Source: Lacipirellulaceae bacterium (lineage in GTDB: Bacteria > Planctomycetota > Planctomycetia > Pirellulales > Lacipirellulaceae). Taken from it: a stretch of 64,000 bases of DNA. Location of the stretch: positions 16,462-80,461 of the forward strand of contig JBIOVA010000218.1 of assembly GCA_044867485.1 (NCBI GenBank), given 5' to 3'. Positions 57,601 to 59,639 of the stretch are shown here, piece after piece (the first letter of the stretch is position 1; each line of letters opens with the position of its first letter). The notes under the pieces were generated by a model that made no database searches, was not told where the DNA came from, and saw only the letters and a list, made by a program, of their open reading frames with translations. The position numbers were made by a program, and so were the translations under genes.

Positions 57601-59639
57601 CGGCCGGCAGCATGGACATGTTCAACGTCACCGTGGCGCAGAATCGACTCATCGCCGGCGGCGGCGGCTTTGCCGGCGACGGCGGCGGTTTTCTCAACAC
57701 GTCCGGCCCATCTGGTATCAATGCCGACGTCCCAATCAAATATGGCGCTCCCGAAAGCGCGCTCATTCCCATTCTCTATGGCGCCGAGACGGTGCTCCGA
57801 CCCGAGGCGGACTACCTGGGCCGAACGCCTTCCGGTCTGATCGCCATCCCGTCGCTGGAAGGGCAGCTTTCTGAGAACAGCTTGGGGATCGACGGCATGA
57901 CGGCGTCGCAACTCGATACGATCGCCAGCGTCTCATGGCTCGGCGCCTTGCCCGTGCTGAGCGTGGCCGTGGGCGAGGGAGCGCTCGGCGCGTTCTTGGC
58001 GCTCACCATTACGACCACCACGGCGGGAGAAATTGGATTCGGAACTAGCGCCGCCGTCGCAGGCACGACCAGCATTACAGGATTTGGCATTGCCGCGGTC
58101 TCGTTCGGCGGCATCGCCATCACGGTCTCCACGTTTGCCATCGGCGCCGTCGTGGCGACAAAGTTTGTGTGGGCGGGCTTTGCCTCGGGCGACTGGGAGG
58201 GAGCCGCGGCATTCGCCCTCGGCACGCCCGGCGATGTGACGGGACGCCATCTGAACGTCCTCCTCCAAGGCGTGCTGCCCAACGAAGACGATGACCCGCC
58301 CGAGCCCGGCGGCCCCGGAGTCGACGGCCAGCCTGGCGACGCCGGCCAGGCGGCGGGAACCAACGTGTGGGGCTCCGCCCGGCTAAATCGCAGTCTCATC
58401 GCCGAGGGCGGCGCGCTGGTGCGTTCGCGCAGCCGCTCGATCGCACCGGTCGTGCTCGACGCGAACACATACTACGTGAGCGAATCCATCGCGAACGTCA
58501 GCCTCGCCGATATCGCGGGGGGGAGTTACGAGAGCTTTGACCCCAGCTTGATCGGCGCCGTTGACTCTGGATTCGTCAACGACCTCCACGGCACGACCGC
58601 CGAGCCGCTCGACGCAAAGCTCGATTCCCAAACCCGCTTCAACGGCGGCACGACGCCCACGCTGCGGCTCCTGCCGACAAGCCCGGCGCGCAACATCGAG
58701 TTCGGATCCGTGGTCTACACCTCGCAAAATGACTACCAGTGGGGATTCTTCTACGACCTGGGCGCCTGGGGCCACGGGTTCAACCAGTCGCTCACCGCCG
58801 AGGACGATGCCTTCCAAATACAGGAAGGCGGCATCCTCAATTTCAAGTTTGAGGATTTGCTGGTCAACGACGACGACCTCGACGACGATCCGCTCACCGT
58901 CGCCAACAACCAGCTCGTCGGCCCCGCCCAGCACGGCATGCTCGTCTACATCGAGGATCTCGAATCCGGCGAGCTCACGATCCAGTACAAGCCCAACGCC
59001 GGCTTCGCGGGCATCGAGACGTTCACCTACCTTGCCACTGACGGCCAGTTCGCGAGCGAAGCCACGATCACAATTACCGTCGTCCCCGCCCTGCCCGGCG
59101 ACTTCGACGTGGACAACGACGTCGACGGCGCCGACTTCCTCGCCTGGCAGCGCGGATTGGGAGCAACCACCGGCGCCACGCGCGCCCAGGGAGACGCCAA
59201 CGCCGACGGCGCCGTCGACGCCGCCGACCTCGCGATCTGGAAGGCGAACTACGGCGACACGCTCCCGGCGGTCGCCGCCGCCCAGCCCGCGTTCGCCCCC
59301 GCCTCTGTGTTGGCATCACCCGCCGTCGCCCCGAAGAGTTGGCTGGTCTCCGGCCGCCAGTGGAGCTGGCCCGTCGCGTCGCCCTCCCCGCTGGCCGCTG
59401 CGGGGCGAGCCCAGGTCGCCCCGCCACGGGCGATCGACGAAGCCCTCGCGCAGCGCTTCACGATCCGAGGCGATCACAGTGACGGCGACCGGCCCAGCAA
59501 TGCCCGAGCGCTCGCGGCAGTCGATGTGCTGCTGGCCGATCGTTCATTCGTCGACGAAAGCGGCGAAGCGCTCGCGTCTCAGAACGAACTCTGGGAATCT
59601 GTCGACGCGTGGAAACTCGTCGCGTCGCCGCCGGGTTGA
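54639..59639 (+). CDS. Giant planctomycete exoprotein: export leader, Gly-rich beta-helix (Pmp-like GGA repeats), hydrophobic insert, choice-of-anchor-Q-like region, Ig/cadherin-like domain, dockerin-like EF-hand pair
   Basis: RFERLEDRRMLA leader, SLREAI, many GGA(I/L/V) and FxxN motifs, NGGTTPTLRLLPTSPA..DLGAW, LLVNDDDLDDDPLTV..TFTY, GDFDVDNDVDGADFLAWQR..GDANADGAVDAADL. Confidence 0.85.
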   Translation: MSDSLVTLLRAPLLSKGLRRKARRRAADRRGLVARFERLEDRRMLATIVLDVAVDADELTVTGPYPNGQMPTITAPLSLREAIVLANQQAVDDDVIINLQFTTYFITRDTVQGGVTSEETLADPFYGDFDISRNVTINGNGATIDANGLGRAFQITSGFDVTINNLTIRNGIAPEVFGFSQGGGIYVNGGSDVTLNNLTMHENIARGRTAQGGAVFLNNSTEAPPAAVVEINGGAYFFNAALGTSGAEVDDASGGAFHVQQGVLVVNDAQILQNLSRAASPTGSGADALGRALGGAIAVEEGSLYLDGAILDQNRAEGARGANAPTGTAGDGGEALGGAIYIGPGNFLLMETSEVTGNVAVAGAGGNGPFFAGGAGGLASGGGLYVEQNDANVGVADTIFRDNIAQAGAGGSGQDFGGVGGIARGGALAVSTANQGNPPGLVLMSVVFEENSSTGGAGGQVDDGSAGTGGASFGGAIFAGRGSIHLQDSPQLRNASNGGAGGNAFKGPAGKGGFASGGAIHLEGSAALTVVSMSSHTGPVIDPASVTVTGVMLENVATGGRGGHKLNASDSSADDSGDGGDAQGGGMAVTTSAPLILSDIMFINNGAIAGNGGNGDVFAAQGGFGTAGGASGTARGGALYAQTNLTLDGVGFSSNQALGGILEADPANGAFAGGKAGVGENLDGLSGGNGGSAMGGAVYLGLGNLAVQDSMFAGNQAIASNGGAGGAGLNFNPNAMGRAGGQGGRGGDAYGGAIRVESSGTVDLEGAWFASNTALAGRGGSGGRGADGFDGGNGGGGGNGGTAAGGALSVHPVSAPPGIRTDVDILESTFAYNKSIGGDGGFAGNGGTGNRGLGGAAGDGGHGGAAVGGAIDLNTVDGDLRRSTIQENIVSSGWGAAGGYGGSGAWIGGSLDFVDGRGGNAGDALGGGIVLLNSTLIAHTSTIVLNDVYSGFGGNGGFGGFGFLGGGNGGHGGDGGQALGGGVYNDGPAGSMDMFNVTVAQNRLIAGGGGFAGDGGGFLNTSGPSGINADVPIKYGAPESALIPILYGAETVLRPEADYLGRTPSGLIAIPSLEGQLSENSLGIDGMTASQLDTIASVSWLGALPVLSVAVGEGALGAFLALTITTTTAGEIGFGTSAAVAGTTSITGFGIAAVSFGGIAITVSTFAIGAVVATKFVWAGFASGDWEGAAAFALGTPGDVTGRHLNVLLQGVLPNEDDDPPEPGGPGVDGQPGDAGQAAGTNVWGSARLNRSLIAEGGALVRSRSRSIAPVVLDANTYYVSESIANVSLADIAGGSYESFDPSLIGAVDSGFVNDLHGTTAEPLDAKLDSQTRFNGGTTPTLRLLPTSPARNIEFGSVVYTSQNDYQWGFFYDLGAWGHGFNQSLTAEDDAFQIQEGGILNFKFEDLLVNDDDLDDDPLTVANNQLVGPAQHGMLVYIEDLESGELTIQYKPNAGFAGIETFTYLATDGQFASEATITITVVPALPGDFDVDNDVDGADFLAWQRGLGATTGATRAQGDANADGAVDAADLAIWKANYGDTLPAVAAAQPAFAPASVLASPAVAPKSWLVSGRQWSWPVASPSPLAAAGRAQVAPPRAIDEALAQRFTIRGDHSDGDRPSNARALAAVDVLLADRSFVDESGEALASQNELWESVDAWKLVASPPG

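What the first reader, a model, noticed from the sequence alone, without database searches (positions are those of the whole stretch)
57700..58300. Hydrophobic translocator/pore-like cassette spliced into a loop of the beta-helix exoprotein
Seen: the Gly-rich coil pattern stops at ..GGFAGDGGG and resumes at PGGPGVDGQPGDAGQAAG. Between them lie ~190 aa of different character, including a ~100-aa stretch with only three or four charged residues (57921-58223: IASVSWLGALPVLSVAVGEGALGAFLALTITTTTAGEIGFGTSAAVAGTTSITGFGIAAVSFGGIAITVSTFAIGAVVATKFVWAGFASGDWEGAAAFALG). This is enough for 3-4 small-residue TM helices, and its codons look more A/T-rich than the flanks. Established: Gly/Ala-rich hydrophobic hairpins are the membrane-inserting parts of pore-forming colicins, RTX toxins and T3SS translocators, and do not belong in a fully secreted beta-helix. 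Inference: a surface-displayed adhesin carrying a membrane-penetrating module (contact toxin, predation or fusion factor), possibly an exchangeable cassette. No immunity gene is evident.
Basis: partly seen in the sequence, partly recalled or inferred. Interest (0 to 1): 0.72.

Follow-up and report, generated by a model that had tools for sequence, protein, structure and literature searches.

The report
Hydrophobic membrane module inside beta-helix exoprotein
A large exported rod-shaped surface protein carries, near the base of its rod, a conserved ~90-residue greasy segment that most likely holds it in a membrane; it is a fixed hallmark of a very rare protein family, not a swappable toxin cassette.

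Summary
The gene at window 54639-59639 (+) encodes a 1666-aa exoprotein. Its Gly-rich beta-helix is interrupted at 57687-58358 by a ~220-aa module whose 89-aa core (57918-58184) has only 3 charged residues.

The "exchangeable pore or translocator cassette" reading is not supported:
- The same module sits at the same place in all 15 relatives found, in two lineages that use different export signals.
- It matches nothing in Pfam, NCBIfam, PHROGs or PDB sequences.
- It is not amphipathic.
- The family has no cargo domain, immunity gene or conserved neighbour.
- GC3 is ordinary.

What evolves is telling. The core drifts in sequence (36-62% identity) but keeps its length (81-92 aa) and near-absence of charge. 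The following G-D-W-E...LG.PG...VLL.G motif is the best-conserved part of the protein.

The core differs from ordinary membrane helices of this genome: Gly/Ala/Ser/Thr 59% against 34%, Leu 7% against 20%, with intermediate hydrophobicity.

Best reading (0.40): two or four tightly packed helices form a membrane anchor at the C-terminal base of the rod. Rivals are a latent membrane-inserting module (0.25) and a non-membrane hydrophobic zipper (0.20).

Both AlphaFold runs gave low confidence, so the fold is unresolved. The family is very rare: 8 clusters among 1.84 billion representative proteins.

The parts
54639..59639 (+). Gene for the 1666-aa exoprotein (P0002). The longest ORF starts at TTG 54480.
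54723..54776 (+). N-terminal basic stretch plus the planctomycete export-type motif RRGLVARFERLEDRRMLA (pattern RRLxxExLExRxLLA).
   Evidence: Sequence. PF07595 matches 54741-54776 at only 15.9 bits, E 0.13, below the 25.5 cut-off. The meaning of the motif is taken from PMC8567305.
54870..54899 (+). SLREAIVLAN, the N-cap motif of CSLREA-type beta-helix domains.
   Evidence: Sequence. The same motif occurs in P0009, P0013 and P0018. The family name is from my own knowledge.
54900..57686 (+). Long Gly-rich right-handed beta-helix region with GGA[ILV]...F..N-type repeats.
   Evidence: Pfam Pectate_lyase_5 at residues 184-254. Beta_helix PF13229 hit in homologue P0015. Repeats are visible. The fold was not confirmed because AF2 failed.
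57687..57917 (+). Pre-core loop of 77 aa, Pro/Gly-rich, beginning with the conserved P-x-[RK]-Y and YGA.
57918..58184 (+). Hydrophobic core of 89 aa (TIASVSWL...KFVWAGFA) with 3 charged residues. Probably 2 or 4 helices.
58185..58283 (+). Post-core motif SGDWEGAAAFALGTPGDVTGRHLNVLLQGVLPN, the best-conserved segment of the protein.
   Evidence: 88-97% identity to P0003 and P0004. Holds the family-wide invariant G-D, LG.PG and L..G positions.
58284..58358 (+). Acidic/Pro/Gly linker EDDDPPEPGGPGVDGQPGDAGQAAG, leading back into the helix.
58359..58778 (+). Last beta-helix rungs and C-terminal cap (...LDAKLDSQTRFNGGTTPTLRLLPTSPARN...YDLGAWG).
   Evidence: Matches the C-cap of the insert-less beta-helix protein P0018, E 2e-5 for ours and 5e-11 for P0010.
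58782..59081 (+). Big_9 / cadherin-like domain.
   Evidence: Pfam PF17963, E 2.3e-13
59094..59243 (+). Dockerin type I-like repeat pair.
   Evidence: Pfam PF00404, E 1.3e-5
59586..59612 (+). Acidic C-terminal Trp motif ELWESVDAW, shared with other exoproteins of this genome that carry the N-terminal motif.
   Evidence: W1658 is invariant in alignment A1.

Best explanation
The insert is an ancestral, family-defining membrane module, not a mobile cassette.

Anatomy. A structured 'neck' brackets an 81-92-residue, nearly charge-free core. The neck is made of the pre-core loop (P.RY...YGA) and the very conserved post-core motif (GDWE...LG.PG...VLL.G). The core is rich in Gly, Ala, Ser and Thr.

Proposed mechanism. 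The core folds as an even number (2 or 4) of tightly packed alpha-helices buried in a lipid bilayer. Both ends of the insert then return to the same side, and the beta-helix continues into its last rungs and cap.

The module leaves the rod only ~140 residues before the C-terminal cap. It would therefore pin the C-terminal base of a ~900-residue rod, together with the adjoining cadherin-like, dockerin or LamG domains, to a membrane of the producer's own envelope. The N-terminal end of the rod would point away from that membrane.

The simplest route is Sec translocation with stop-transfer and re-initiation at the hydrophobic helices, giving an N-out/C-out topology.

Shown: the module's existence, position, conservation pattern, composition and lack of relatives in known families. 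Inferred: helicity, membrane burial, which membrane, and the anchoring role.
For: 1. Conservation pattern typical of lipid-buried segments. Across 12 aligned members, core length is 81-92 aa, with 2-4 charged residues and 0-2 Pro. Sequence identity in the core (62/52/36/38%) is lower than in the flanking helix (72/70/56/55%). The interface motif after it is the most conserved part (88/97/55/73%).

2. Uniform hydrophobicity. 19-residue Kyte-Doolittle peaks of 1.7-2.3 occur in every member. The last helix scores best, at 0 to +2 kcal/mol by an additive Hessa scale, against a median of +1.76 for helix-like peaks of polytopic-looking ORFs of the same genome. Hydrophobicity is even around a helix (alpha moment z = -3.5), and there is no beta alternation (z = +1.5).

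3. Interface-like ends. The core starts after a conserved L-D and ends at K-x-x-W ... G-D-W-E, that is, charged and aromatic residues at both ends.

4. The helix continues after the insert. The following segment matches the C-cap of an ordinary insert-less beta-helix protein. The two ends of the insert must therefore lie on the same side.

5. The verrucomicrobial homologues P0014-P0017 start with classical Sec-type signal peptides. These proteins pass through SecYEG, where such a stretch can partition into the lipid.

6. No other anchor is present in any member: no C-terminal TM segment and no PEP-CTERM.

7. No toxin-like features. There is no cargo domain, no immunity gene and no conserved partner gene in six loci.

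8. AF2 places long helices at module residues 59-101 and 117-153, but at low confidence.
Against: - The core is unlike ordinary membrane helices of this genome. Large hydrophobic residues make up 35% against 55%, Leu 7% against 20%, Gly 18% against 8% and Ser+Thr 18% against 9%. Only 3.9% of the genome's TM-like 19-mers are as poor in large hydrophobic residues.
- Additive dG for 12-17-residue windows is -1.05 to +0.70 kcal/mol. That is the 'intermediate niche' reported for exported membrane proteins that avoid inner-membrane targeting (PMC6110835).
- In Tuwongella, proteins with the planctomycete N-terminal motif fractionate with the wall and outer-membrane fraction, not the inner-membrane fraction (PMC8567305).
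- Both AF2 models are low-confidence (pLDDT 28 and 37).
- No TM-topology predictor was available.
- There is no experimental or expression evidence.
Confidence: 0.4

Rival explanations
1. Latent membrane-inserting module. The protein is fully exported as a surface fibre, with the greasy core shielded against the beta-helix or by oligomerisation. On contact with another membrane (prey, host, neighbour or vesicle) the core inserts, giving irreversible attachment, a pore or fusion.
For: - The composition is small-residue-rich and Leu-poor with intermediate hydrophobicity. It is atypical of this genome's integral-membrane helices and lies within the range reported for secreted membrane proteins.
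- The rest of the protein is a typical exported adhesin-like fibre.
- The planctomycete members carry the surface-protein N-terminal motif and the acidic C-terminal motif shared by other exoproteins of the genome.
- There is precedent for a ~170-residue hydrophobic region carried inside a soluble secreted toxin, in the large clostridial toxins (PMC4885049). That it lies along an elongated beta scaffold is my own recollection. I name this only as an analogy.
Against: - No sequence similarity to any pore-forming, translocator, bacteriocin or glycine-zipper family.
- No amphipathic helices that could shield the core.
- No cargo domain, immunity gene, chaperone or dedicated secretion genes nearby.
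- The module sits at the base of the rod next to the C-terminal domains, not at a tip.
- Sec-dependent homologues would have to carry ~90 greasy residues through SecYEG and the periplasm without inserting.
Confidence: 0.25
2. Non-membrane hydrophobic zipper. The Gly/Ala/Thr/Val/Ile-rich core forms a beta-rich or coiled self-association element. It would bundle several rods or be buried against the helix, and would never enter a bilayer.
For: - High content of beta-branched residues (Val+Ile+Thr 22-38%) and Gly (10-25%).
- Large hydrophobic residues are far less common than in real TM helices.
- The host fold is itself a beta solenoid.
- AF2 helices are low-confidence.
Against: - No two-residue hydropathy alternation (z = +1.5, not significant) and no repeat that continues the solenoid.
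- A ~90-residue stretch almost free of charge, with sequence drifting but hydrophobicity fixed, is unusual for soluble domains. It is the only such window among the 38 motif-bearing ORFs of the genome; the next highest (mean 0.82) is a subtilase core.
- Charged and aromatic residues cluster at both ends, as at membrane interfaces.
Confidence: 0.2
3. Artefact or chance: a frameshift, misassembly or accidental low-complexity run with no function.
For: The protein is Gly/Ala-rich overall and only 14.6% charged, so hydrophobic windows are somewhat easier to obtain. 12 of 20000 shuffles reach the observed value.
Against: - The frame is open and continuous.
- The same module occurs in 15 independent sequences from different samples and genomes, with conserved flanking motifs.
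Confidence: 0.02

Closest known systems
CSLREA / 'choice-of-anchor Q'-type right-handed beta-helix surface proteins (for example the insert-less P0018 found here); Pmp-like GGA[ILV]/FxxN repeat proteins
   Same: SLREA N-cap motif, Gly-rich GGAI...F..N rungs, and a C-cap (L.P.LD..L....GG.TPT..LL..SPA....D.GAW) that aligns with P0018. Adhesin-type C-terminal domains.
   Different: Ordinary members run from rungs to cap without interruption. This family has a ~220-aa module with an ~89-aa charge-poor core inserted ~140 residues before the cap.
Planctomycete cell-surface proteins with the N-terminal RRLxxExLExRxLLA motif (Pfam PF07595 Planc_extracel)
   Same: The motif is present at 54723-54776. 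The genome holds 9 above-threshold and ~30 weaker copies on long ORFs. Such proteins are regarded as surface proteins (PMC8567305).
   Different: Ours scores below the Pfam cut-off. It is the only such ORF in the genome with a long hydrophobic window. Verrucomicrobial family members use Sec signal peptides instead.
Hydrophobic domains of secreted membrane-active proteins (RTX toxin hydrophobic domain, colicin hydrophobic hairpin, T3SS translocator TM segments, large clostridial toxin hydrophobic region)
   Same: A long Ala/Gly-rich segment of intermediate hydrophobicity inside an otherwise soluble exported protein.
   Different: No sequence relationship. No amphipathic shielding helices, no RTX nonapeptide repeats or C-terminal T1SS signal, no chaperone, acyltransferase or immunity gene, and no cargo domain.
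Glycine-zipper / small-xxx-small helical hairpins (SlyB/Pcp-type Gly-zipper lipoproteins, ATP synthase c-subunit hairpin)
   Same: Helices rich in small residues, which would pack tightly or oligomerise in a membrane. This is my own knowledge used as an analogy.
   Different: No Pfam Gly-zipper hit even at E <= 10. The core is about twice the length of a single hairpin and is embedded in a 1666-aa beta-helix protein.

Membership tests
Right-handed beta-helix surface protein (CSLREA / choice-of-anchor-Q type) | N-terminal SLREA cap motif | tested here: met
   SLREAIVLAN at 54870-54899. The same motif occurs in P0009, P0013 and P0018. No NCBIfam model hit.
Right-handed beta-helix surface protein (CSLREA / choice-of-anchor-Q type) | Beta-helix repeat region recognised by profile or structure | tested here: inconclusive
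   Only Pectate_lyase_5 (E 2e-5) and a sub-threshold NosD hit in ours. Beta_helix PF13229 hit in homologue P0015. The AF2 model was unusable (pLDDT 28).
Right-handed beta-helix surface protein (CSLREA / choice-of-anchor-Q type) | C-terminal cap motif (..GG.TPT..LL.GSPA....D.GA.) | tested here: met
   BLASTP against the caps of P0018: E 2e-5 for ours and 5e-11 for P0010.
Planc_extracel (PF07595) exported proteins | N-terminal motif scoring over the Pfam cut-off | tested here: inconclusive
   15.9 bits, E 0.13, against a cut-off of 25.5. By eye, ERLEDRRMLA fits ExLExRxLLA.
Pore-forming colicin / RTX / T3SS translocator domains | Profile similarity to a described pore-forming or translocator family | tested here: not met
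   Pfam at E <= 10 gave only a chance TrwC hit. Nothing relevant in NCBIfam at E <= 1 or PHROGs. The PDB profile search gave only E 0.28-0.61 chance hits.
Pore-forming colicin / RTX / T3SS translocator domains | Amphipathic helices surrounding the hydrophobic hairpin | tested here: not met
   The pre-core loop is Pro/Gly-rich. The helical hydrophobic moment of the core is below shuffles (z = -3.5).
Pore-forming colicin / RTX / T3SS translocator domains | Linked immunity, chaperone, acyltransferase or secretion genes | tested here: not met
   The neighbours are a sulfatase, a PP2C phosphatase and an FG-GAP protein. No gene is shared across six family loci.
Glycine-zipper membrane domains (PF13488, PF13441, PF05433) | Pfam profile match | tested here: not met
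   No hit at E <= 10.
Autotransporter / inverse autotransporter translocator | Beta-barrel domain with alternating amphipathic strands | tested here: not met
   No Pfam barrel domain. The core is only ~89 aa. Beta periodicity is not significant.
Sec-inserted alpha-helical membrane anchor (functional class) | Segments with TM-like length and hydrophobicity | tested here: inconclusive
   Kyte-Doolittle 19-residue peaks of 1.7-2.3 lie in the range of the genome's TM-like peaks. Composition is atypical and additive dG is intermediate. No topology predictor was available.
Mobile / exchangeable cassette | Presence/absence or swapping among close homologues, or deviant composition | tested here: not met
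   All 15 members carry a homologous module at the same site. GC3 lies within the range of the gene.

The most novel reading that the evidence does not exclude
This may be a previously undescribed class of surface fibres in Planctomycetota and Verrucomicrobiota. They would carry a self-contained, latent, Gly/Ala/Thr-rich membrane-penetrating module that is exported through Sec (or the planctomycete route) without inserting at home, and that plunges into a foreign membrane on contact: a one-protein contact-dependent membrane-inserting adhesin or pore with no cargo and no immunity gene. A variant of the same reading is a rigid periplasm-spanning rod, anchored in the inner membrane by an internal helical bundle, that reaches the wall or outer membrane.
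Probability: 0.22. Interest if true: 0.75.

Novelty: new variant of a known kind. Interest (0 to 1): 0.45.

Why it matters
How the many giant exoproteins of Planctomycetota and Verrucomicrobiota are held on, or act at, the cell surface is largely unknown. Their export motif has no known machinery, and most have no recognisable anchor.

This small family (8 clusters among 1.84 billion representative proteins) offers a clean, testable case. A standard beta-helix fibre has acquired a conserved internal membrane-type module, with an invariant interface motif, at the base of the rod.

If the module is an anchor, it is an unusual way of fixing a solenoid rod to a membrane from an internal loop. If it is a latent inserting element, it would be a new membrane-active module without relatives among known toxins. 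Either outcome can be decided with simple topology and liposome experiments.

Tried and rejected
- **AlphaFold2, 524-aa piece.** Rungs, insert and cap with a 5-sequence alignment gave pLDDT 28, which is unusable.
- **AlphaFold2, 227-aa module.** Only low-confidence long helices came out. I did not run fold search, because matches to such models are meaningless.
- **The search for related loci.** Alignment A4 was too divergent. Alignment A3 found no confirmed relatives in genome contigs or metagenome contigs.
- **PDB profile search.** Only chance hits.
- **Family libraries.** PHROGs and NCBIfam on the module gave nothing. Pfam at E <= 10 gave only a chance TrwC hit.
- **Codon and GC deviation.** Rejected.
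- **A second hydrophobic-insert exoprotein in the genome.** The next-best window, in contig C32, is just a subtilase core.
- **Does the module replace a missing C-terminal anchor?** Other exoproteins of the genome with the same N-terminal motif also lack hydrophobic anchors, so this gives no support either way.
- **Additive Hessa dG and Kyte-Doolittle yardsticks.** They could not separate 'Sec-inserted' from 'exported then inserted'.
- **Earlier notes of this scan.** No notes on this sequence.
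Full report
**1. What is there**

The finding lies inside one long gene. The ORF runs 54480-59639 (+), and the gene call on record starts at ATG 54639 and gives 1666 aa (P0002).

The domains, from N to C terminus, are as follows:
- **Export-type motif (54723-54776).** A basic N-terminus carries RRGLVARFERLEDRRMLA. 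This fits the planctomycete pattern RRLxxExLExRxLLA, which is thought to be an export signal of cell-surface proteins (PMC8567305). The Pfam model PF07595 matches it only weakly (15.9 bits, E 0.13). The genome has 9 above-threshold copies and about 30 weaker ones on long ORFs, and no control genome has a copy above the cut-off.
- **N-cap.** An SLREA motif at 54870-54899.
- **Beta-helix region.** About 900 residues of Gly-rich GGA[ILV]...F..N rungs. Pfam reports Pectate_lyase_5 here.
- **The insert.**
- **Last rungs and C-cap.** About 140 residues.
- **C-terminal domains.** A Big_9/cadherin-like domain, a dockerin-like pair, and an Ala/Pro-rich acidic tail.

Neighbouring genes are a sulfatase upstream on the other strand, a PP2C phosphatase 73 bp downstream, and an FG-GAP/ASPIC/PEP-CTERM protein.

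**2. Checking the observation**

The quoted 101-aa peptide translates exactly from 57921-58223. It has 5 charged residues (E3, D1, K1).

I divide the insert into four parts (coordinates verified):

| Part | Window coordinates | Length |
|---|---|---|
| Pre-core loop | 57687-57917 | 77 aa |
| Hydrophobic core | 57918-58184 | 89 aa, 3 charged |
| Post-core motif SGDWEG...LLQGVLPN | 58185-58283 | 33 aa |
| Acidic/Pro/Gly linker | 58284-58358 | 25 aa |

The hydrophobic window is not a chance product:
- Only 12 of 20000 shuffles of the protein reach its 90-aa mean hydropathy of 1.31.
- Among 38 ORFs of the genome carrying the N-terminal motif, it is the only one with a 100-aa window above 1.0. The runner-up is a subtilase core.

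GC3 is 0.74-0.79 in the insert, within the range of the gene.

**3. Relatives**

- A word-indexed search with the insert region found four homologues at 45-72% identity. All of them contain the module.
- A profile of the module, scored against 1.84 billion representative proteins, found only 8 clusters.
- Further searches added P0013 and four ~2100-aa proteins. One is named by NCBI as coming from a Verrucomicrobiae MAG.
- Whole-genome searches found the module in 1 of 301 genomes of the window's order and 1 of 401 of its phylum. In both cases the only hit was the window's own genome. It occurred in 3 of 251 genomes of the verrucomicrobial order, and one of those genomes has two copies.
- It is single-copy in the window's own genome.

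All 15 sequences share one layout: rungs, then P-x-R-Y, a variable Pro/Gly loop, the charge-poor core, G-D-[WFV]-E ... LG.PG ... VLL.G, an acidic/Pro linker, the last rungs with the cap, and then adhesin-type domains.

The segment after the insert aligns with the C-cap of an ordinary beta-helix protein that has no insert (P0018; E 5e-11 for P0010 and 2e-5 for ours). It is therefore a true insertion into the solenoid, and an ancient, fixed one.

The planctomycete-type members have the RRL..E.LE.R.LLA-type N-terminus. The verrucomicrobial ones have classical Sec-type signal peptides.

No member carries an enzymatic or toxin domain. No neighbouring gene is shared among six loci.

These results refute the 'exchangeable cassette'. 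They also remove the usual hallmarks of a toxin system: cargo, immunity gene, chaperone and dedicated secretion genes.

**4. Nature of the core**

*Conservation.*
- Core length is 81-92 aa, with 2-4 charged residues and 0-2 prolines in every member.
- Identity to P0003/4/5/6 is 62/52/36/38% in the core and 72/70/56/55% in the N-terminal helix.
- It is 88/97/55/73% in the post-core motif, which also holds nearly all family-wide invariant positions.
- Drifting sequence with fixed length and hydrophobicity, bounded by charged and aromatic residues (L-D at the start, K..W...GDWE at the end), is what lipid-buried segments look like.

*Periodicity.* Hydropathy shows less helical amphipathicity than shuffles (z = -3.5) and no significant two-residue alternation (z = +1.5). 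This argues against pore-lining or surface amphipathic helices, and against barrel or solenoid strands.

*Hydrophobicity.*
- 19-residue Kyte-Doolittle peaks are 1.7-2.3.
- By a crude additive Hessa scale, the last helix scores about 0 to +2 kcal/mol. That is similar to the median (+1.76) of helix-like peaks in polytopic-looking ORFs of the same genome. The other segments score +2 to +4.
- In 12-17-residue windows the minima are -1.05 to +0.70. This range overlaps the 'intermediate hydrophobicity niche' described for exported membrane proteins (PMC6110835).
- My additive values are not the published position-weighted predictor, so the comparison is rough.

*Composition.* It is clearly unusual:

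| Residues | Family cores | Genome's TM-like 19-mers |
|---|---|---|
| L, I, V, F, M, W | 35% | 55% |
| Leu | 7% | 20% |
| Gly | 18% | 8% |
| Ser + Thr | 18% | 9% |
| Gly + Ala + Ser + Thr | 59% | 34% |

Only 3.9% of the genome's TM-like 19-mers are as poor in large hydrophobic residues as the family median.

*Structure prediction.* It failed. pLDDT was 28 for the 524-aa piece and 37 for the module. The second model shows long helices at module residues 59-101 and 117-153 and a short one over DWEGAAAFA. I treat these as weak hints only.

**5. Mechanism**

The solenoid resumes after the insert, so both ends of the module must lie on the same side of any membrane. That requires an even number of crossings. 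About 89 residues fit four short helices with tight Gly turns, or two long ones.

The module leaves the rod close to its C-terminal cap. If it is buried in a bilayer, it fixes the base of the rod and the adjacent cadherin-like, dockerin or LamG domains to that membrane, and the N-terminal end points away.

I commit to an anchor in the producer's own envelope as the most likely role (0.40). The simplest route is Sec stop-transfer and re-initiation, for these reasons:
- Some members demonstrably carry Sec signal peptides.
- No other anchor exists in any member.
- The family has no cargo, immunity or partner genes.

The high content of small residues would then serve tight helix packing or oligomerisation. 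This is an analogy from my own knowledge, with the ATP synthase c-ring hairpin and glycine zippers.

The atypical composition and intermediate hydrophobicity are the main evidence against this reading. They keep the latent membrane-inserting reading alive (0.25). The large clostridial toxins show that a long hydrophobic region can travel inside a soluble secreted protein (PMC4885049); I name them only as an analogy.

A non-membrane hydrophobic zipper gets 0.20. An artefact gets 0.02.

**6. Comparison and novelty**

The host protein is an ordinary member of the CSLREA-type beta-helix surface proteins. The cap motifs were met, while profile evidence for the rungs is weak.

The module has no match in any family library searched here or among PDB sequences. 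It fails the tested defining features of colicin, RTX or translocator domains, glycine-zipper families and autotransporter barrels.

I rate it a new variant of a known kind: a beta-helix exoprotein family defined by an internal membrane-type module. It is rare, conserved across two lineages, uncharacterised and experimentally tractable. Its function is unresolved, and the toxin reading that made it attractive lost its main props.

Interest: 0.45.

Noticed in passing
window 59586-59612 (ELWESVDAW) and the C-termini of other ORFs of the genome (contigs C268, C23, C206, C121, C170, C255): ORFs carrying the N-terminal planctomycete export-type motif often end in an acidic tail with a Trp-acid motif, for example ..DEWDAAFAEFG..SADWDAAFESFG..FEDWDAALELD. 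7 of 33 such ORFs have it, against 31 of 4110 other long ORFs (Fisher p = 1e-8; the regex was chosen post hoc). Mean D+E in the last 35 aa is 7.0 against 3.8. This may be a paired C-terminal sorting or attachment signal.
   Followed up: partly
window 59712-60605 (+), and the loci of P0009 and P0017 (L003): Ser/Thr phospho-signalling genes flank 3 of 6 family members. Here a PP2C phosphatase lies 73 bp downstream, with no terminator-like site between. P0009 has an ECF sigma factor plus a Pkinase-WD40 upstream and another kinase downstream. P0017 has a divergent Pkinase-WD40. This may be coincidence in kinase-rich phyla.
   Followed up: partly
window 60763-62697 (-) and L003 1-2888: FG-GAP/ASPIC (UnbV) repeat proteins lie near both this gene (here with a PEP-CTERM end) and the verrucomicrobial homologue P0017.
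   Followed up: no
L010 and L011 (genome G719): One verrucomicrobial genome carries two diverged paralogues of the family, both with the module. In L010 the Glu of the GDWE motif is replaced (GDWA).
   Followed up: partly
P0004 (L004 8001-12884): The recorded gene call of homologue P0004 starts at MLATV.., inside the export motif, so its N-terminus is probably truncated by gene calling.
   Followed up: no
C-termini of P0010, P0014, P0015, P0016: The verrucomicrobial members end in a small domain finishing ...GFYR[LIT] / GFFRI. This looks like a recurrent C-terminal domain of that lineage. Its identity was not checked.
   Followed up: no
window 57812-58468 (-) and other minus-strand frames across the gene: Long antisense ORFs (for example 218 aa) overlap the insert. 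They are typical of high-GC DNA, and there is no evidence that they are genes.
   Followed up: no
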